Shown: positions 11,787 to 19,295 of the stretch, piece after piece
How positions within the stretch are numbered: the stretch's first letter is position 1
How the letters are laid out: each line of letters starts with the position of its first letter
Assembly: GCA_019058445.1 (NCBI GenBank)
Contig: JAHPZA010000006.1
Coordinates: 736,001 to 800,000, forward strand
DNA length: 64,000 nt
Source of the DNA: Promethearchaeota archaeon
GTDB lineage: Archaea > Asgardarchaeota > Lokiarchaeia > Sigyniarchaeales > SOKP01
Reading direction: 5' to 3'
Notes under the pieces: generated by a model
Databases searched by the model: none
Told to the model about the DNA's origin: nothing
The model's input: the letters and a program-made list of their open reading frames with translations, nothing else
Program-made: the position numbers and the translations under genes

Positions 11787-13250
11787 ATGACTGAAGATAT
11801 ATTATTTCAAAAATTAGTTGAAATTTTTAGCTCAAAATATGTATCAAGAGAACGAAATATTCTAAATAACTATTCCAAAGATTTAAGCTTTTATCCTGAA
11901 AAAGCTCCAAAATATGTTGCATGGCCTACTGATACAAAAAAGATTGAAGAGGTTTTAAAATTAGCTAACGAATTAAAATTTTCTGTTATTCCTATCAGTT
12001 CAAGCTCTGGTCCACGTCATCATGGAGATACTATTCCTCATAAGGATAATACTATTGTATTAGATCTTTCTAATATGAATAAAATTCTTAATATTGACAG
12101 AAAGAACAGAGTAGTTATGATTGAACCGGGAGTTACCTTCGGGAAGTTAATACCGGAACTCCAAAATAAAGGATTAAGATTACTATTACCCCTCCATCCA
12201 CGGGATTCTAAATCTGTCTTAACCAGCGCATTAGAAAGAGAACCAATTACCATCCCCCGTTATCATTGGGACAGCTCCGATCCCTTGTTATGTACTGAAG
12301 TTTTTTTTGGAACAGGAGATCTTTTTAGAACAGGTACAGCAGCAGGTCCAGGAACAATAAAAGAGCAACAAGCAACTGGTCAAGCCCAGGTAAATCCCAT
12401 GGGTCCTACTCAATTCAGTCCTTTCAGAGTTATTCAAGGCGCTCAGGGCAGTTTAGGAGTTGTAACCTGGGCTACACTTAAATTAGAGTTAATCCCAACT
12501 ATTCAAAAAGTGGTTCATATCCAATCAGATACTATTCCCGAATTATTAAATCTTCAGCATGAATTAATAAAATACCGTTTATGCAACGAATTATTAATAT
12601 TAAACAACTTAAATTTAGCTTGTTTAGTTAAAAAGAATGCACAAGAGATAACCGAGCTGAAAAACAAAATAAAGAGATGGAATTTACTTTATATAATTGC
12701 TGGAAGAGGAAAGTTAGCAGAAGATAAAATATCATATTTAGAAGGAGACATTAGGGATATTATAGGAGACCTTGGGCTTAAAGGTTTAATCAGTGAAAAC
12801 ATCATTAATGATAATGATATTTTACAAGTTTTAAGTCAAGCAACACCTGATCCTTGGAGGTTAAAGTTAAAGGGGGGATATCAAGATATATTTTTCCTTA
12901 CGAGTTTTGAAAAAATTACAGAATTTATTTCAATTGTAGAAAAAGAAGTTCCACAAGATTTAGGAATTTACATTCAACCGATTAACCAAGGAACTTCATA
13001 TCACTGTGAATTTGATCTTTATTATGATCCTTCAAATGATGCAGAAAAGACGAATATTAAGGAGAAATTCTTAAAAATTAGTACTAACTTAATGGATTCT
13101 GGTGCCTTTTTTAATAGACCCTACGGAATTTTAACAAAAGAAGTATATAAAAGACATGATGATTCAACTCAGACGGCTTTAAAAAAAGTAAAAAAGATAT
13201 TTGACCCTAACAATGTGTTAAATCCAGGGGTACTATGTTTTGATGAATAA
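11787..13250 (+). CDS. FAD-binding oxidoreductase (GlcD/VAO-PCMH fold)
   Basis: LDLSNMNKI, IEPGVT, GAQGSLGVVT and FDPNNVLNPG motifs. Confidence 0.88.
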   Translation: MTEDILFQKLVEIFSSKYVSRERNILNNYSKDLSFYPEKAPKYVAWPTDTKKIEEVLKLANELKFSVIPISSSSGPRHHGDTIPHKDNTIVLDLSNMNKILNIDRKNRVVMIEPGVTFGKLIPELQNKGLRLLLPLHPRDSKSVLTSALEREPITIPRYHWDSSDPLLCTEVFFGTGDLFRTGTAAGPGTIKEQQATGQAQVNPMGPTQFSPFRVIQGAQGSLGVVTWATLKLELIPTIQKVVHIQSDTIPELLNLQHELIKYRLCNELLILNNLNLACLVKKNAQEITELKNKIKRWNLLYIIAGRGKLAEDKISYLEGDIRDIIGDLGLKGLISENIINDNDILQVLSQATPDPWRLKLKGGYQDIFFLTSFEKITEFISIVEKEVPQDLGIYIQPINQGTSYHCEFDLYYDPSNDAEKTNIKEKFLKISTNLMDSGAFFNRPYGILTKEVYKRHDDSTQTALKKVKKIFDPNNVLNPGVLCFDE

Positions 13251-13341
13251 ATAACCATAAATATTATGACTAATCTTTTTCAAATTCAAGATTAGATTGA
13301 TAAAATTACCTAATTATAGGTAATACGAAGGAGGATAGGAC

Positions 13342-14649
13342 ATGATGGATGATGAGGAATACAAGCATCTGATAAGACGTTGTATCCGCTGCTCTATATG
13401 TAAATGGATTCCACAGCTTCAAATTAAAAGTAAAAAATATGCGACTATCTGTCCCGCTATAGATATGTATAACTTCCATCCCTATAGTGGTGGTGGTAAA
13501 ATAATCCTTGCGCTTGCTTTAGAAATGGAAAAAATTAAACCTTCTGAGGAACTACGCGATATTGTTTATAAATGCACGGAATGTGGAGGCTGTGATGTCT
13601 CATGTAAATTTTTGAATAATTTGGAGCCCTTAGAAATTATAATAAAATTAAGGGAGAAATTAGTTGATTTAGGCTATGGCCCAATGCCTAAGCAACAACA
13701 ATACATTGATTCTGTTAAAAAAAACAATAATCCATATAATGAACCCCATGAAAATAGATTGAACTGGTTGCCAGAGGATATAAATATTGATCCTAATGCT
13801 CAAGTTTTATATTTTGTAGGATGCACTTCCTCCTATAGACGGAAAGAAATGGCAATTGCCGCCTGTAGAGTATTAAATGCTGCAGGAGTTCCATTTAATA
13901 TCTTAGATAATGAGGAATATTGCTGTGGAAGCCCTGTTTTTCGGACTGGTGATATTAACACCTTTAAAGATTTTATGAATAAAAACGTAGATGCAATTGA
14001 AGCTAAAAATATTAAAAAAGTAGTTTTCAGTTGTGCAGGCTGCTACGATACATTTAAAGTTCATTATCCGCTTTATCGTAATTATAATTTTGAAGTTAAG
14101 CATAGTGTTGAATTTTTTAACGAACTAATTGAAAATGGAAAATTATTATTGACGAAAAAAGTACCCTTAACTGTTACCTATCACGATCCTTGTCATTTAG
14201 GGAGAAATGCTGAACCCTACAAGGAATGGAAAGGTAAAGTTGTGAATTTAATGCCTTTGATATCTATTCACGTACCTCCTAAACCTAAACGATGTGGAAC
14301 TGATGGGGTATATGAATCTCCCAGAGAGCTTCTGAAAAAGATTCCCGAATTGAAATTCATTGAGATGGAACGGATTAAAGAATATTCATACTGTTGTGGA
14401 GCGGGGGCTGGTGTAAAATCAGCATTTCCCGAATTTGCTCTCCATACAGCAAAAAATAGGATACAGGAAGCTGAAGATACTGGAGCACAAGTTATTACGT
14501 CTTCTTGTCCCTTCTGTTCGACTAATCTTCAAGATGCAATTCATGAAAGCGATTCTCTATTAAAATATTATGACATAAACGAATTATTAATGATGGCAAT
14601 AGGGATCACTGATGAGAAATTAAAAGAATTTTTGGGGGAAGTTGCTTAA
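13342..14649 (+). CDS. Fe-S oxidoreductase, HdrD/GlcF-like (ferredoxin motifs + two CCG domains); intron-less copy
   Basis: CIRCSIC, CTECGGC, YCCGSP, YHDPCHLGR, YCCGAG and SCPFC motifs. Confidence 0.92.
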   Translation: MMDDEEYKHLIRRCIRCSICKWIPQLQIKSKKYATICPAIDMYNFHPYSGGGKIILALALEMEKIKPSEELRDIVYKCTECGGCDVSCKFLNNLEPLEIIIKLREKLVDLGYGPMPKQQQYIDSVKKNNNPYNEPHENRLNWLPEDINIDPNAQVLYFVGCTSSYRRKEMAIAACRVLNAAGVPFNILDNEEYCCGSPVFRTGDINTFKDFMNKNVDAIEAKNIKKVVFSCAGCYDTFKVHYPLYRNYNFEVKHSVEFFNELIENGKLLLTKKVPLTVTYHDPCHLGRNAEPYKEWKGKVVNLMPLISIHVPPKPKRCGTDGVYESPRELLKKIPELKFIEMERIKEYSYCCGAGAGVKSAFPEFALHTAKNRIQEAEDTGAQVITSSCPFCSTNLQDAIHESDSLLKYYDINELLMMAIGITDEKLKEFLGEVA

Positions 14650-16221
14650 ATGGTCTTAGAAAATGAAATTTTTAAAGATTTTGAAGATATTGTAGGTAAA
14701 AATAATATTAACGATGGAAAAGTAATAACTACGGCGTATGCCTATAATTGGTGTATGGAATTTTTCAATTATATGGAAGATAAGGAACCCAGTCCTTTTT
14801 CTTCTATTCCTAAAGCAGTAATTCTTCCTGCTTCTACTGAGGAAGTAGCTGAAATTATAAAATTATGTAATAAATATGGGATTAAATTTAAGGCCCAAAG
14901 CACAGGATTAGGACCATGGAATCAGCCTTCTACAGACAATTGTATAATTGTGGATCTACGAAGAATGAATAAACTTGTAAAAATTGATGAAAAAAATTTA
15001 TATGCCGTTATCGAGCCATACGTAAGTGGAGCACAGCTACAAGTTGAGGCAATGAAGTATGGGCTTAATTGTCATATGCCCGGAGCTGGTCCTCACGTAT
15101 CTCCTCTGGCAAGTGCTACATCAATGGCGGGTCCAGGTTTTACCTCTCCTTCTACTGGTCATAGCGCAAGAAATGTCCTAGGTGTTGAGTGGGTATTACC
15201 TACCGGAGATATTATGAGATTAGGTGCGATTGGTCTTAAAAAAAAACCTGATTGGTATAATGGTGATGGTCCAGGTCCTAGTTTAAGAGGGATAATGCGG
15301 GGTTGGGTTGGAGCAAAATCAGGAATCGGAGTATTTACTAAGGTCGCGGTAAAATTATTTCCTTATCCTTGCAGTACGGATTTTACTATTACTGGAAAAT
15401 CTCCCAATTACGGATTTAAAATTCCGAAATATTTAAGACTATATGTTATGGATTGTAAGACCTACGAATTTTTGGAAGAGGTTATGCTTAAGGTTGATGA
15501 GGAAGAAATCTCTTTTATGTGCAGTCATTTATCTGGATCAGGTTTAGCGGCAATATTTTCCAATTCATTGCAAGGTTTAATAGGGAAAGCAAAACTCGCT
15601 CAGTTGAAAGTTCCGATAGTTATACTAATTACCGCTCGAACAGACCGTGAATTTGATTACAAGCAAAAAGTTATGGATAATTTGATTCAAGAGTTAAATA
15701 TTAAAGACATTATCGGTAAATCATATTCTCCTGAACCAGTGTTTTATGCTGAGGCTTTACGTTCGAATTTAGGGTTACACGGATTTATTACAACCGGAAG
15801 TTTTCAATCTTCTAAAGGAGGATCTGATACTGCTGCAGTATGTCTTTTAAGTACAAAAATGAACATCCCGTTGAAGATGGAATATATTAAATCGGGGGCA
15901 ATTGGGAACGATTCAGGAAAAGGTGTTTGGATGACCTCCTATGAATCCGGCCACTACTACCATATGGAATCACCGACTATGTTTGATCAAACAGATGACC
16001 ATAGCGTTAAGGGAATGGCGGAGTACATGGAGGCCAGCAATCAATTAGATTTACTAAAACATCTCGGTGCTCCGTTTTTTGTAGAAGGGACCCAGATGCA
16101 TGAGCTATTTGGGCCACATATGTCTAATTACCATATTTGGCTAAGAAAAATTAAACAGGCATTTGATCCCAATAATATAGCAGATAGTGGATTTTATATA
16201 TCACCACACAGTAAAGAATAG
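14650..16221 (+). CDS. FAD-binding oxidoreductase (GlcD/VAO-PCMH fold), copy 1
   Basis: VDLRRMNK, GIGVFTK, FDPNNIADSG; start abuts upstream stop (TAAATG). Confidence 0.9.
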   Translation: MVLENEIFKDFEDIVGKNNINDGKVITTAYAYNWCMEFFNYMEDKEPSPFSSIPKAVILPASTEEVAEIIKLCNKYGIKFKAQSTGLGPWNQPSTDNCIIVDLRRMNKLVKIDEKNLYAVIEPYVSGAQLQVEAMKYGLNCHMPGAGPHVSPLASATSMAGPGFTSPSTGHSARNVLGVEWVLPTGDIMRLGAIGLKKKPDWYNGDGPGPSLRGIMRGWVGAKSGIGVFTKVAVKLFPYPCSTDFTITGKSPNYGFKIPKYLRLYVMDCKTYEFLEEVMLKVDEEEISFMCSHLSGSGLAAIFSNSLQGLIGKAKLAQLKVPIVILITARTDREFDYKQKVMDNLIQELNIKDIIGKSYSPEPVFYAEALRSNLGLHGFITTGSFQSSKGGSDTAAVCLLSTKMNIPLKMEYIKSGAIGNDSGKGVWMTSYESGHYYHMESPTMFDQTDDHSVKGMAEYMEASNQLDLLKHLGAPFFVEGTQMHELFGPHMSNYHIWLRKIKQAFDPNNIADSGFYISPHSKE

Positions 16222-16387
16222 AGGAATGAAGTTGACTAATAAGTATATATTGTGTACGTATGCAATAATAAGCTTTTTAACATTTAAGTTATTCCCAGAT
16301 AAGACTCAGATTTTTAAATTTATAAATTAATACTTATATAATCTCTATAATCAGAATTAAATAACTTTAAAATCAAGATGTAAGTCA

Positions 16388-17726
16388 ATGATTGATGAAA
16401 AAGAATATCAGAAAATGATTAAGCGGTGTCTGCGCTGCTCGATAAATGAATAGAAATTGATTCTTTCATTCGGAATGCAAGTGGATACCGCAAGTTCAGA
16501 TTAAGAGCCAAAAGTACGCGACTGCCTGCCCGGCAATGGATATGTATAATTTCCACCCGTATAGTGGTGGGGGTAAAATAATCTTGGCTTTATTACTTGA
16601 AATGGGCAGAATCAATCCTTCAGATGAGTTGCGGGATATCGTTTATAAATGTACTGAATGCGGGGCATGTGCTATTTCCTGTAAATTTTTAAACACTTTA
16701 GAACCTTTAGAAATAATTATGAAACTACGGGAGAAATTGGTTGATGCAGGATGTGGTCCAATGCCTAAGCAACAAGAATACATTGATTCAGTCAAAAATA
16801 AGAATAATCCTTATAATGAACCTCATGAAAAGCGATTAGATTGGTTACCAGAAGGGATTAAACTCGATCCAAATGCGAAAGTCTTGTATTATGTTGGCTG
16901 TACCTCATCATATAGACGGGAAGAGATGGCAATCGCTTCAGTCCGCATAATGAATGAGGCCCAAGTTCCCTTTACTATTTTAGGTGATGATGAATTTTGC
17001 TGTGGTAGTCCTGTTTTAAGAACAGGTGATACCAAAACATTTCAAGAATTTCTTAATAAAAACCTTGATATGATTGAGTCGAAAGGAATTGAAACCGTTG
17101 TATTTAGCTGTGCGGGGTGTTATGATACCTTTAAAGTCGATTATCCCCTATATCGAAAATATAATTTCCGTGTACTTCATGTCGTTGAGTTTTTTGATGA
17201 GCTACTTGAATCTGGACAATTAAAGCTGATAAATGAAGTGCCTTTAACAGTAACATATCACGATCCCTGTCATTTAGGGAGAAATGCTGAACCTTATGAA
17301 GAATGGGAAGGGGATGTGGTCGATTTAATGCCATTAGTTTCTATAAATATGCCGCCAAAACCCAAAAAAACAGGTGCTAAGGGTATCTATGACGCTCCAA
17401 GAGAGATTCTAAAAAAGATTCCGGGACTAAAACTTATTGAAATGGAACGAATAAGAGAATATTCTTACTGTTGTGGTGCTGGAGCAGGGGTAAAATCAGC
17501 ATTTCCCGAATTTGCACTCAATACAGCTAAAACTAGAGTACAAGAAGCAGAAGATACTGGAGCTAAGATATTGACATCAGCATGTCCATTTTGTTCTACA
17601 AATCTTCAAGACGCAATAAAAGATAGAGGCTCTAAGTTAAAATTCTATGATATAAATGAGCTATTATTAATGGCTTTAGGTTTAGAAACGAAAAGCTTAA
17701 AAAAAAAAATGGCGGAGGTTGCCTAA
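16388..17726 (+). CDS. HdrD/GlcF-like CCG Fe-S oxidoreductase, copy 2; split gene join(16388..16444,16476..17726), 435 aa
   Basis: Exon 1 MIDEKEYQKMIKRCLRCSI plus exon 2 CKWIPQVQIKSQKYATACPAMDMYNF... is colinear with, and the same length as, the 13342..14649 product; the ORF track start at 16536 misses the N-terminus. Confidence 0.88.
16445..16475 (+). other. Candidate archaeal bulge-helix-bulge (BHB) mRNA intron, 31 nt
   Basis: Helix UCGA(16439-42)/UCGG(16470-73), bulges UAA(16443-45) and AAU(16474-76), internal hairpin, exon-exon stem 16423-38/16477-91; canonical cuts restore the frame; in-frame TAG at 16451. Confidence 0.85.
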
Positions 17727-19295
17727 ATGACATTAGATAAAGAGATTTTAACCGAGTTCGTTGAAATAGTTGGAAAAGAAAATATTGACGATGGAGAAGT
17801 TATGACAAATGCTTATGCTTATAATTGGTGCATGGATTTATTCAATCACATGGAAAGTAAACCCGCAATCCCTTTTTCACCTATTCCTAAAGCGGTTGTT
17901 TTACCTTCTTCTACAGAGGAGGTAGCACAAATTGTTAAAATATGCAATAAATATGGCATTAAATTCAAAGCACAATCAACTGGTCTCGGACCATGGAATC
18001 AACCTTCTACAGAGAATTCGATCATTATTGATTTGCGAAGGATGAATAAAATTGTAAAAATCGATGAGAAAAATCTGTATGCCGTCGTGGAACCATATGT
18101 AAGTGGGGCGCAACTTCAAGCAGAAATTATGAAATATGGTCTTAATTGCCATATGCCAGGTGCGGGACCTCAAGTTTCCCCTTTAGCGAGTGCAACTAGC
18201 ATGAATGGTCCTGGATTTACCTCTCCTTCTACAGGGCATAGCGCTCGTAATGTATTAGGGGTTGAATGGGTCTTGCCTGATGGAGAAATCATGAGGTTAG
18301 GTTCACGTGGGCTTAAAAATAACCGTAATTGGTATAATGGTGATGGCCCGGGACCTAGTCTTAGAGGTATAATGAGAGGATGGGCTGGAGCAAAATCGGG
18401 CATCGGTGTTTTCACTAGAGTTGCAGTTAAACTATTTCCATATCCTTGTAGCACTAAATTTAAGTTAAAAGGGTGTTCTCCAAATTATGATTTTGATATT
18501 CCTGATTTTATGAGAGTATATGTGATAGACTGCGGGACATTTAAGTATTGTGAAAAAGCAATGTTGCGGGTAGAAGAAGAGGAAATTTCATTTATGTGCA
18601 GTCATTTATCTGGATTTGCCGTAATGGCAATCTTTGCAACCAGTATTGAGGATTTAATGGATAAAATGGCTATAGGGAGTATGAAAGTTCCCTTAGTCGT
18701 TATAATAGCTGCTCGAACAACTAGGGAATTTGAATACAAACAAAAAGTTATGAGTATGATTTTAGATGAGATGCAATTAACTAACATTATTGGAAGCCTA
18801 TACACACCTAATCCAATTTTTTACGCAGAAGCACTAAGATCAAACTTAGGTCTTCACGGCTTCATTGCTACCGGAGGATTTCAAAGCACTAAAGGTGTTT
18901 GTGATACTGCTGCAATATGCCTCCGAAGTGAACAAAAGAATATTCCATTGAAAAAGAAATATATCAAAACAGGTGCGATCGCAAACGACTTCGGTGAGGG
19001 CCATTGGATGACATCTTATGAATCAGGACATTACTTTCACGTGGAGGCTCCCACGATGTTCGACCAAACGGAGCAAAGTAGTGTGGAAGGCATGGCGGAC
19101 TATATGGAAGCCAGCAATCAGATGGATTTGCTTAAGCATCTTGGAGCACCGTTTTTCGTGGAAGGTGATAAGATGCATGAAACTTTTGGCCCTCATATGA
19201 TGAATTACCATAAATGGTTGAGAAAAATTAAACAAGCGTTCGATCCTAATGATATAGCAGATTCAGGGTTTTATATCTCAAGAAAAGAAAAATAA
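17727..19295 (+). CDS. FAD-binding oxidoreductase (GlcD/VAO-PCMH fold), copy 2
   Basis: Colinear close paralog of 14650..16221; TAAATG coupling to the upstream gene. Confidence 0.9.
   Translation: MTLDKEILTEFVEIVGKENIDDGEVMTNAYAYNWCMDLFNHMESKPAIPFSPIPKAVVLPSSTEEVAQIVKICNKYGIKFKAQSTGLGPWNQPSTENSIIIDLRRMNKIVKIDEKNLYAVVEPYVSGAQLQAEIMKYGLNCHMPGAGPQVSPLASATSMNGPGFTSPSTGHSARNVLGVEWVLPDGEIMRLGSRGLKNNRNWYNGDGPGPSLRGIMRGWAGAKSGIGVFTRVAVKLFPYPCSTKFKLKGCSPNYDFDIPDFMRVYVIDCGTFKYCEKAMLRVEEEEISFMCSHLSGFAVMAIFATSIEDLMDKMAIGSMKVPLVVIIAARTTREFEYKQKVMSMILDEMQLTNIIGSLYTPNPIFYAEALRSNLGLHGFIATGGFQSTKGVCDTAAICLRSEQKNIPLKKKYIKTGAIANDFGEGHWMTSYESGHYFHVEAPTMFDQTEQSSVEGMADYMEASNQMDLLKHLGAPFFVEGDKMHETFGPHMMNYHKWLRKIKQAFDPNDIADSGFYISRKEK

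What the first reader, a model, noticed from the sequence alone, without database searches (positions are those of the whole stretch)
16388..16491. Canonical bulge-helix-bulge intron inside a protein-coding gene (candidate tRNA-endonuclease-spliced mRNA intron in a probable Asgard archaeon)
Seen: the second CCG Fe-S gene starts at ATG 16388 and tracks its paralog (MIDEKEYQKMIKRCLRCSI vs MMDDEEYKHLIRRCIRCSI). It then carries 31 extra nt (AATGAATAGAAATTGATTCTTTCATTCGGAA, 16445-16475) with an in-frame TAG and a frameshift, and resumes with CKWIPQVQIKS. The RNA folds by eye into a textbook BHB: flanking helix UGC(16436-38)/GCA(16477-79), 4-bp central helix UCGA(16439-42)/UCGG(16470-73), 3-nt bulges UAA(16443-45) and AAU(16474-76), and intron hairpin AUGAA-U-AGAA/loop AUUGA/UUCU-UUCAU. 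Established: the archaeal splicing endonuclease EndA cuts after the second nucleotide of each bulge and RtcB ligates. Applying that rule gives cuts at 16444|16445 and 16475|16476, producing TGC TCG ATA TGC AAG TGG (CSICKW, as in the paralog) and a 1308-nt CDS, the same length as the paralog. The BHB mRNA introns I know of are mainly the crenarchaeal cbf5 introns. Inference: this is a spliced metabolic gene in a Loki-like genome, which I am not aware of having been described; the literature should be checked. Automated annotation would call it a truncated gene.
Basis: partly seen in the sequence, partly recalled or inferred. Interest (0 to 1): 0.97.

Follow-up and report, generated by a model that had tools for sequence, protein, structure and literature searches.

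The report
tRNA-type intron splits Asgard metabolic gene
A 31-base insert that breaks an iron-sulfur enzyme gene of a Lokiarchaeia (Asgard) archaeon has the RNA shape that the tRNA-splicing enzymes cut. Relatives keep it at the same spot with different sequences, so the messenger RNA is very probably spliced, which the papers I could search report for only one archaeal coding gene (cbf5).

Summary
A 31-nt insert (16445-16475) interrupts a CCG/4Fe-4S gene (16388-17726). Its tandem paralog (13342-14649) lacks the insert. The minimum-energy fold is a canonical hBHBh' motif. Cutting after the second base of each bulge restores CSICKW and a 1308-nt reading frame.

Comparative evidence:
- 22 distinct alleles from MAGs and metagenomes carry an insert of 29, 31 or 34 nt at this site.
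- They have about ten unrelated hairpin sequences and two cutting registers. All give CSICKW.
- Exon 2 is under strong purifying selection (dN/dS 0.05-0.17).
- EndA and RtcB are encoded in the genome.

I found no RNA data, so splicing is inferred, not shown.

New points:
- Intron-bearing alleles have a 9-bp exon-exon clamp helix.
- Intron presence is patchy on the gene tree (6-8 changes).
- The intron travels with a 5' module (upstream DNA, exon 1, intron and about 20 nt of exon 2) that is far more similar between lineages than the gene body.
- I verified seven other mRNA introns of 21-32 nt in this genome. One is a clean, recent insertion.

This scan has noted BHB mRNA introns before, in this genome and in others. 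The papers I could search report only cbf5 and one 5' UTR case.

The parts
16222..16387 (+). AT-rich upstream part of the '5' module' (probable own promoter and short leader). TATA-like runs lie at about 16320-16342.
   Evidence: The 166-nt gap after the upstream gene is 89% conserved with the intron-bearing orthologs of G002 and G003, and 78% with G003's second intron-bearing copy. The promoter assignment is an inference from reading the sequence.
16388..16444 (+). Exon 1: 19 codons, MIDEKEYQKMIKRCLRCSI. It holds the first two Cys of the CxxCxxC cluster motif.
   Evidence: The peptide is conserved in all intron-bearing alleles. Pfam Fer4_8 starts at residue 12 of the intact paralog.
16425..16433 (+). 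5' strand of the exon-exon clamp helix (GGUGUCUGC). It pairs with 16481-16489.
   Evidence: Minimum-energy fold. Kept in the alignment fold with one compensatory pair. Exon-exon duplex energy averages -17.5 kcal/mol in intron-bearing alleles against -7.1 in intronless ones.
16436..16438 (+). Outer helix h, 5' strand (UGC). It pairs with GCA 16477-16479.
16439..16442 (+). Central 4-bp helix H, 5' strand (UCGA). It pairs with UCGG 16470-16473.
16443..16445 (+). 5' bulge UAA. Predicted cut at 16444|16445.
   Evidence: Unpaired in the minimum-energy fold. The rule of cutting after the second bulge base is as stated for cbf5 in PMC2738675.
16445..16475 (+). The 31-nt BHB intron. It contains the in-frame stop TAG 16451-16453 and shifts the frame.
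   Evidence: It is 27/31 and 30/31 identical to the G003 and G002 introns, while about half of the synonymous sites differ.
16446..16469 (+). Intron hairpin h' (AUGAA-U-AGAA, loop AUUGA, UUCU-UUCAU).
   Evidence: Other lineages have unrelated hairpin sequences at the same place.
16470..16473 (+). Central helix H, 3' strand (UCGG).
16474..16476 (+). 3' bulge AAU. Predicted cut at 16475|16476.
16476..17726 (+). Exon 2: 416 codons plus stop, CKWIPQ... with two CCG domains.
   Evidence: dN/dS is 0.05-0.08 against G002 and G003.
16481..16489 (+). 3' strand of the clamp helix (GUGGAUACC).
13342..14649 (+). Intronless tandem paralog (435 aa). It gives the reference for the uninterrupted junction CSICKW.
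   Evidence: Its ortholog in G003 does carry an intron.
14650..16221 (+). Upstream FAD_binding_4 (GlcD-like) flavoprotein gene of the duplicated FAD/Fe-S/FAD unit.
17727..19295 (+). Downstream FAD_binding_4 (GlcD-like) flavoprotein gene. Its start abuts the stop of exon 2.

Best explanation
The 31 nt at 16445-16475 are an archaeal bulge-helix-bulge intron inside the coding sequence of a GlcF/HdrD/TfrB-like CCG iron-sulfur subunit of a Lokiarchaeia (Promethearchaeia) MAG.

Inferred steps:
1. The pre-mRNA is transcribed from the AT-rich region upstream.
2. Exon 1 (codons 13-16) and exon 2 (codons 2-5) pair into a 9-bp clamp. The clamp presents a canonical hBHBh' motif.
3. The splicing endonuclease EndA cuts after the second base of each 3-nt bulge (16444|16445 and 16475|16476).
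4. RtcB joins the exons and probably circularises the 31-nt intron.
5. The mature mRNA encodes a 435-aa protein whose first cluster motif CxxC|xxC is rejoined.
6. Unspliced RNA would give only a 21-aa peptide ending at the TAG.

Shown here: the structure, its conservation with changing sequence, selection on both exons, and the presence of the enzymes. Inferred: the cleavage and ligation themselves.
For: (1) Anatomy. The minimum-energy fold equals the canonical BHB, z = -4.0. The excised product matches the paralog in residues and in length.

(2) Comparative. 22 distinct alleles carry a 29-, 31- or 34-nt insert at this site with about ten unrelated hairpins: 10 loci from genomes and 11 new intron variants from metagenomes. 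There are two registers, UCGA/UCGR with bulges UAA/AAU and CUCG/CGRG with bulges AUA/AAA. The cut rule gives CSICKW in all. L111 against L160 shows a compensatory A-U to G-C change in the hairpin. The minimum-energy folds of L017, L033, L048 and L063 keep H, the 5' bulge and the hairpin.

(3) Selection. Exon 2 dN/dS is 0.05-0.17 with dS 0.6-0.9 among intron-bearing orthologs. The intron is 27/31 and 30/31 identical to the G003 and G002 introns at pS of about 0.5. Exon 1 keeps EY..MI..CLRCSI in all alleles. In G003 both tandem copies are interrupted.

(4) Exons are adapted. Exon-exon duplex energy averages -17.5 against -7.1 kcal/mol.

(5) Machinery. EndA scores TIGR00324 89 bits against a cut-off of 59.6, and RtcB scores 574 bits.

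(6) The same kind of insert splits other genes of this genome with exact Pfam continuity, for example Prismane profile 457|458.

(7) The insert is genomic.
Against: There is no RNA evidence of any kind.

Only one EndA homologue was detected. PMC5829648 reports an (alpha-beta)2 enzyme for Asgard archaea, and I did not find a beta subunit. The genome is 92.6% complete.

In one allele (L032) the central helix has a U-U mismatch. In some alleles the 3' bulge is not a clean 3-nt bulge in the minimum-energy fold.

Group-B alleles have no canonical start codon upstream of the internal ATG of exon 1.

An intronless paralog exists in this genome, so loss of this copy would not necessarily be lethal.

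In a prokaryote, translation of exon 1 could compete with folding of the BHB. How this is avoided is unknown.
Confidence: 0.85

Rival explanations
1. The 5' end of the gene is dead. The insert is an unspliced lesion. Either the copy is a pseudogene or it is translated from the first in-frame ATG of exon 2 (16536) as an N-terminally truncated protein.
For: An intronless paralog lies 3 kb upstream. The ORF finder calls 16536-17726 as a 396-aa ORF. No RNA data exist.
Against: Exon 2 dN/dS is 0.05-0.08 over dS 0.6-0.9. Exon 1 and the 20 codons between 16476 and 16535 stay open and conserved in 22 alleles. A product starting at 16536 would lack C14, C17, C20 and the CP cysteine of the first cluster. 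The intron is far more conserved than synonymous sites, and its hairpin covaries. In G003 both copies carry the insert.
Confidence: 0.05
2. The BHB is real and is cut, but mainly as a regulatory switch. Splicing is conditional or inefficient, so the intron, its early stop codon and the module's own promoter set how much full-length protein is made.
For: Most variants place a stop 3-4 codons after the 5' splice site. Intron-bearing alleles have their own upstream region instead of translational coupling to the upstream flavoprotein gene. In Haloferax, removal of the HVO_1309 5' UTR intron matters for expression (PMC7714728).
Against: Nothing here measures splicing efficiency. An early stop is also what a selfish or neutral intron would show in an AT-rich sequence. 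This reading refines the best explanation rather than replacing it.
Confidence: 0.07
3. Programmed translational bypassing: the ribosome hops over the 31 nt, as in T4 gene 60. An alternative form is termination followed by reinitiation.
For: A stop codon and a hairpin follow the take-off region.
Against: No matching take-off and landing codons flank the gap in any register. The only AUG near the 3' end (16475-16477) is out of frame and opens a 9-codon ORF. The conserved features are the two 3-nt bulges and the 4-bp helix, which bypassing does not need.
Confidence: 0.02
4. Assembly or sequencing artefact.
For: None found.
Against: A contig from another sample spans the site with 0 differences. 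Nine other genomes or MAGs and 17 metagenome contigs carry inserts at the same site.
Confidence: 0.01

Closest known systems
BHB intron of the cbf5 (pseudouridine synthase) pre-mRNA in Crenarchaeota (Watanabe 2002; Yoshinari 2006; Yokobori 2009, PMC2738675)
   Same: A short intron inside a coding sequence, flanked by a BHB. The predicted cuts fall between the second and third bulge residues. It depends on the tRNA splicing endonuclease. Its presence is lineage-specific, with gain and loss. Annotation pipelines miscall the gene.
   Different: The gene is a metabolic CCG Fe-S subunit, and the phylum is Asgard/Lokiarchaeia. The motif here is a canonical hBHBh', whereas most cbf5 motifs are described as unconventional (PMC2738675). 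There is an extra 9-bp exon-exon clamp. Presence is much patchier (6-8 changes in 65 genes). The intron is linked to exchange of the gene's 5' end. cbf5 splicing has been shown experimentally; this has not.
BHB intron in the 5' UTR of Haloferax volcanii HVO_1309 (Schwarz 2020, PMC7714728)
   Same: An mRNA substrate of EndA outside tRNA and rRNA, with a small intron (46 nt).
   Different: That intron lies in the untranslated leader and does not interrupt the reading frame. It was shown by circRNA-seq and in vitro cleavage.
Archaeal tRNA introns at canonical position 37/38
   Same: The same hBHBh' geometry, 3-nt bulges, 4-bp helix, similar size, and the same enzymes (EndA, RtcB).
   Different: The host RNA is a translated message, and the outer helix is made of codons instead of the anticodon stem. 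No tRNA or Rfam family matches here.
Eukaryotic HAC1/XBP1 unconventional mRNA splicing (Ire1 plus tRNA ligase/RtcB)
   Same: Non-spliceosomal removal of a small frame-changing mRNA intron by an endonuclease and the tRNA ligase. (From my own knowledge; RtcB in HAC1 splicing is cited in PMC5829648, ref 5.)
   Different: Ire1 recognises twin stem-loops, not a BHB. That splicing is stress-regulated and cytoplasmic.

Membership tests
Archaeal BHB (EndA-type) intron | Two 3-nt bulges on opposite strands separated by a 4-bp helix | tested here: met
   The minimum-energy fold has bulges 16443-45 and 16474-76 and H 16439-42/16470-73. The same holds in 21 of 22 alleles by automatic parse and in the 22nd (L118) by hand.
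Archaeal BHB (EndA-type) intron | Flanking helices h and h' (canonical hBHBh') | tested here: met
   h is UGC/GCA plus a 9-bp clamp; h' is a 5+4-bp hairpin. In the register-2 alleles h is only 2-3 pairs, partly G-U.
Archaeal BHB (EndA-type) intron | Cutting after the second bulge base yields a functional exon junction | tested here: met
   CSICKW and a 1308-nt CDS are restored here. The same holds for all alleles, in two registers and three lengths.
Archaeal BHB (EndA-type) intron | Structure conserved through sequence change | tested here: met
   About ten unrelated hairpins, and a compensatory pair between L111 and L160. The clamp shows U-A to C-G in L063.
Archaeal BHB (EndA-type) intron | Host encodes the splicing endonuclease and the RNA ligase | tested here: met
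   EndA at G000:C9:770343-770864 and RtcB at C1:114713-116020. The EndA subunit architecture was not resolved.
Archaeal BHB (EndA-type) intron | Spliced RNA and excised (circular) intron exist in vivo | not testable with these tools
   No RNA run was listed for this DNA.
cbf5-type pre-mRNA intron | Located in cbf5 at the catalytic Asp codon, in Crenarchaeota | tested here: not met
   The host gene has CCG x2 plus Fer4_8, and the organism is Promethearchaeota. It works like the cbf5 intron but is not a member of that intron family.
GlcF/HdrD/TfrB-like CCG iron-sulfur subunit | N-terminal 4Fe-4S dicluster domain plus two CCG domains, partnered with FAD_binding_4 flavoproteins | tested here: met
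   Pfam PF02754 (two stretches) and PF13183, with neighbours PF01565. No NCBIfam equivalog reaches its cut-off; the best is TfrB at 215 against 385 bits. The substrate is unknown.
Mobile intron with homing endonuclease | An endonuclease ORF inside or beside the intron | tested here: not met
   The intron is 31 nt. The flanking genes here are flavoproteins. DNA inserted next to the module in relatives encodes a multi-HTH 984-aa protein, a 208-aa protein with no Pfam family, or a 235-aa ORF that looks like a membrane protein by eye; that ORF was listed but never scanned against Pfam. No nuclease domain was found in the two that were scanned.
Programmed translational bypass (T4 gene 60 type) | Matched take-off and landing codons around the gap | tested here: not met
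   Read directly from the sequences: none in any allele.

The most novel reading that the evidence does not exclude
This intron is one member of a sizeable and evolutionarily active population of BHB mini-introns, mostly about 30 nt, in protein-coding genes of Lokiarchaeia. On this reading, splicing of messenger RNA by the tRNA machinery is routine in this Asgard lineage. Introns are gained cleanly and recently: the prismane gene's 32-nt insert is absent from 16 relatives. They are lost repeatedly. They can also move between gene copies and between species together with their exonic pairing partners; at this gene that unit is a 5' module of promoter region, exon 1, intron and about 20 nt of exon 2.
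Probability: 0.55. Interest if true: 0.95.

Novelty: new variant of a known kind. Interest (0 to 1): 0.86.

Why it matters
In the papers I could search, endonuclease-type splicing of an archaeal coding sequence is reported for one gene only (cbf5, Crenarchaeota), plus one 5' UTR (PMC7714728, PMC2738675).

[quoted passage not shown] It is backed by 22 alleles, and I verified seven sibling introns in the same genome.

If RNA data confirm it, three things follow:
- Interrupted protein genes and obligatory mRNA splicing exist, and turn over quickly, in the archaeal lineage nearest to eukaryotes.
- Gene callers systematically truncate or split such genes in Asgard MAGs. This distorts metabolic reconstructions. 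Here the product would lose an Fe-S cluster.
- The linkage between the intron and an exchangeable 5' module, together with the clean recent insertion in the prismane gene, gives concrete material for asking how BHB introns are gained. That question is still open even for tRNA introns.

Tried and rejected
RNA evidence. No RNA holder was listed for 16200-16800 or for 16330-17726. Read laying could therefore show only DNA contigs.

Genome-wide census by BHB geometry plus "excision restores a long ORF". This was not enriched over decoys with shifted cuts, whatever the exon-length, energy or codon-score filter. Chance BHB-like sites next to gene boundaries dominate in this AT-rich genome. The codon-score filter even rejected the true site.

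Requiring the BHB to be the minimum-energy fold. This was too strict for a census: 7 of 90,147 candidates passed, and 3 of those 7 restore ORFs.

Paralog-continuity test by blastp. This was again not enriched overall, but it confirmed the EF-2 and BKACE-like introns. I therefore give no total count, only "at least eight, including this one".

Other checks:
- An automatic BHB parse picked a wrong alternative for L118. I corrected it by hand.
- No Rfam family or tRNA overlaps the site.
- No EndA beta subunit was found.
- blastn-short of eight introns against the genome found no related copies, so this is not a repeat family.
- No homing endonuclease or recognisable integrase or transposase was found beside the module. 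Pfam was run on the 984-aa and 208-aa ORFs. The 235-aa ORF was never scanned against Pfam.
- The IS200/IS605 omega-RNA circular RNA paper (PMC12558985) proved irrelevant.
Full report
**1. The observation**

The window is G000:C6:736001-800000 of a 4.6-Mb, 10-contig genome that is 92.6% complete.

ATG 16388 opens 19 codons, MIDEKEYQKMIKRCLRCSI, and then reads N, E and a stop (TAG 16451-16453). From 16476 a 416-codon frame reads CKWIPQVQIKS... to the stop at 17724-17726. The tandem paralog 13342-14649 (435 aa) reads ...RRCIRCSICKWIPQLQIKS... without a break. The DNA alignment of the two shows one 31-nt gap.

It adds a 9-bp exon-exon helix, 16425-33/16481-89. Energy is -21.9 kcal/mol against -11.8 +/- 2.5 for shuffles, and 0 of 200 shuffles fold as well.

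Strict BHB geometry occurs at about 4.6e-5 per position and length in this genome. Of 90,147 relaxed candidates, only 7 have the BHB as their minimum-energy fold, and this site is one of them.

A contig assembled from another sample spans 16250-16567 with no difference.

**2. The gene and the organism**

Both paralogs have two CCG domains and an N-terminal 4Fe-4S dicluster domain. Each is flanked by FAD_binding_4 (GlcD-like) flavoprotein genes in a duplicated FAD/Fe-S/FAD unit, 11787-19295. No NCBIfam equivalog reaches its cut-off; the nearest are TfrB, LdhH, GlpC and GlcF. The substrate is therefore unknown.

The intron falls between the second and third cysteine of CxxCxxC. A protein started at the first in-frame ATG of exon 2 (16536) would lack every ligand of that cluster.

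Orthologous loci come from MAGs titled Promethearchaeota or Promethearchaeia, that is Lokiarchaeia. The DNA occurs in sediment metagenomes.

**3. Comparative evidence for a spliced intron**

In 40 related genomes, and in 64 loci fetched from one genome per species, ten gene copies carry an insert at exactly this site and 55 do not. A pattern scan of metagenome contigs added 17 more contigs with 11 distinct intron sequences.

Altogether there are 22 distinct alleles with introns of 29, 31 or 34 nt and about ten unrelated hairpin sequences. Two registers occur:
- H = UCGA/UCGR with bulges UAA and AAU or AUU.
- H = CUCG/CGRG with bulges AUA and AAA, AAU, UAA or GAA.

In every allele, cutting after the second bulge base gives ...RCSICKW... 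(L118 parsed by hand). L111 and L160 differ by a compensatory A-U to G-C change in the hairpin. The single-sequence folds of L017, L033, L048 and L063 keep H, the 5' bulge and the hairpin.

Exon 2 is full length in all copies. Its dN/dS is 0.05-0.17, with dS 0.6-0.9 between this genome and G002 or G003. Over that same distance the intron is 27/31 and 30/31 identical, and its changes are confined to the apical loop. Exon 1 keeps EY..MI..CLRCSI in all alleles. In G003 both tandem copies are interrupted.

EndA (202 aa, TIGR00324 89 bits against a cut-off of 59.6) and RtcB (574 bits) are encoded in the genome. PMC5829648 reports that Asgard archaea have the broad-specificity (alpha-beta)2 EndA. 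I found only one subunit.

**4. New anatomy: an exonic clamp**

All intron-bearing alleles pair GGUGUCUR (codons R-C-L of exon 1) with YGGAUACC (codons W-I-P of exon 2). L063 has a compensating variant.

Exon-exon duplex energy averages -17.5 kcal/mol in intron-bearing alleles against -7.1 in 56 intronless ones (Mann-Whitney p = 5e-5). These rows are related, so the p-value overstates the case. Synonymous codon choice around the junction therefore goes with the intron.

**5. Patchy distribution and a travelling 5' module**

On a tree of exon 2 proteins, intron presence needs 8 changes, and at least 6 are forced by well-supported branches. Several close sister pairs differ in the intron:

| Intron-bearing | Intronless | Note |
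|---|---|---|
| L032 | L035 | 95% nt identity |
| L033 | L038 | 97% nt identity |
| L048 | L088 | |
| L063 | L062 | |
| G003 par1 | this window's par1 | |

In each pair, homology at that level starts at the 3' splice site.

The 95 nt that hold exon 1 and the intron are 87-95% identical among L032, L033, L037 and L048. The stretch upstream of that is 73-85% identical. The gene bodies of these loci are only about 75% identical.

The first 15-24 nt of exon 2, which form the 3' strand of the clamp, go with the module. L033 differs from L038 at 4 of its first 15 nt, against 3% overall. L017 differs from its ortholog at 7 of 24 nt, but from this window's intron-bearing copy at only 1 of 24.

Upstream of the module lies different inserted DNA in each lineage:
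- G041: 4.0 kb holding a 984-aa multi-HTH protein and a 208-aa protein.
- G003: 1.33 kb holding a 235-aa ORF that looks like a membrane protein by eye. I did not scan this ORF against Pfam.
- L033: 316 nt.
- L063: 511 nt following a decayed copy of the old exon 1 plus 18 nt of exon 2.

I infer that the intron moves between paralogs and species by recombination, together with both strands of its exonic helix. I found no endonuclease gene beside the module in the ORFs I scanned. The mechanism is unknown. The alternative, repeated loss from an ancestral intron-bearing state, is not excluded.

**6. Not alone in this genome**

Notes from earlier readers of this scan pointed to many such introns, so I tested what my own scan found. 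Pfam or paralog continuity across the predicted junction supports these:

| Gene | Location in G000 | Length (nt) | Support |
|---|---|---|---|
| Prismane/CODH family | C6:396802-396833 | 32 | profile 3-457 \| 458-512 |
| Oxidored_FMN | C6:165873-165902 | 30 | Pfam |
| ChlD-like | C9:269043-269072 | 30 | Pfam |
| Obg-like GTPase | C6:1272337-1272367 | 31 | Pfam |
| Thiolase-like | C6:181163-181183 | 21 | Pfam, weaker |
| BKACE-like | C3:396671-396701 | 31 | paralog continuity |
| EF-2 | C10:684116-684145 | 30 | paralog continuity |

The prismane intron is a clean 32-nt insertion. It is absent from all 16 relatives that hold the gene, including same-genus G003.

The GTPase intron occurs with compensating hairpins in G002, G006 and G008. 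It is absent in same-genus G001 and G005.

The introns share no sequence with each other or with anything else in the genome.

A statistical census failed, because chance BHB-like sites at gene boundaries swamp the signal. I give no total.

**7. Literature**

PMC7714728 (2020) states that, apart from the HVO_1309 5' UTR intron, the only other BHB intron in an archaeal mRNA is that of crenarchaeal cbf5. PMC2738675 says that no pre-mRNA splicing was confirmed for genes other than cbf5. It also gives the same rule of cutting between the second and third bulge residues.

Five full-text searches found no report of BHB introns in Asgard protein genes. A 2026 preprint treats Asgard tRNA introns only.

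**8. Verdict**

This is very probably an mRNA intron spliced by EndA and RtcB (confidence 0.85). It lacks only RNA-level proof.

It works like the cbf5 intron but is not a member of that intron family. It adds a clamp helix, rapid turnover, module exchange and a multi-gene context. This scan has flagged BHB mRNA introns before, in this genome and in others.

Noticed in passing
G000:C6:396802-396833 (outside the window; locus L108 403-434, minus strand): A 32-nt BHB intron sits in a Prismane/CO-dehydrogenase-family gene, with exact Pfam continuity (457|458). It is a clean insertion absent from all 16 relatives that hold the gene, so it is probably a recent gain. A synonymous CCT to CCA change completes the outer helix.
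   Followed up: yes
G000:C6:1272337-1272367 (locus L106 338-368): A 31-nt BHB intron splits the P-loop (GKP|SSGKST) of an Obg-like GTPase. It is present with compensating hairpins in G002, G006 and G008, and absent in same-genus G001 and G005.
   Followed up: yes
G000: C9:269043-269072, C6:165873-165902, C6:181163-181183, C3:396671-396701, C10:684116-684145: Further BHB inserts of 21-31 nt lie in ChlD-like, Oxidored_FMN, thiolase-like, BKACE-like and EF-2 genes. They are supported by Pfam or paralog continuity across the junction.
   Followed up: partly
L063 940-988: A decayed copy of the original exon 1 plus the first 18 nt of exon 2 (with a TAA) lies about 440 nt upstream of the new exon 1 and intron. 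It is a footprint of how the intron-bearing 5' end was installed.
   Followed up: partly
L104 1372-4949 (G041:C41): In G041 a 4-kb insertion separates the upstream flavoprotein gene from the intron-bearing CCG gene. It carries a 984-aa protein with several HTH domains (resolvase- or transposase-like HTH hits) and a 208-aa protein with no Pfam family. It is absent from the 95%-identical locus of G042.
   Followed up: partly
window 11787-19295: A tandem duplication of a FAD / CCG Fe-S / FAD unit. The first Fe-S copy is intronless here, but its ortholog in same-genus G003 carries a 29-nt intron.
   Followed up: yes
intron variants at the CCG site: Most variants place an in-frame UAG or UAA as the third or fourth codon after the 5' splice site, inside the 5' arm of the hairpin. 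This may be a device to stop ribosomes on unspliced RNA, or it may be chance in AT-rich sequence.
   Followed up: no
whole genome G000: ARAGORN finds only 23 tRNA genes in 4.6 Mb, and 19 of them are called with an intron. This suggests a heavily interrupted tRNA set that standard tools largely miss.
   Followed up: no
G000:C9:770343-770864: Only one EndA homologue (202 aa) is detectable. No beta subunit was found, although Asgard EndA is described as (alpha-beta)2.
   Followed up: partly
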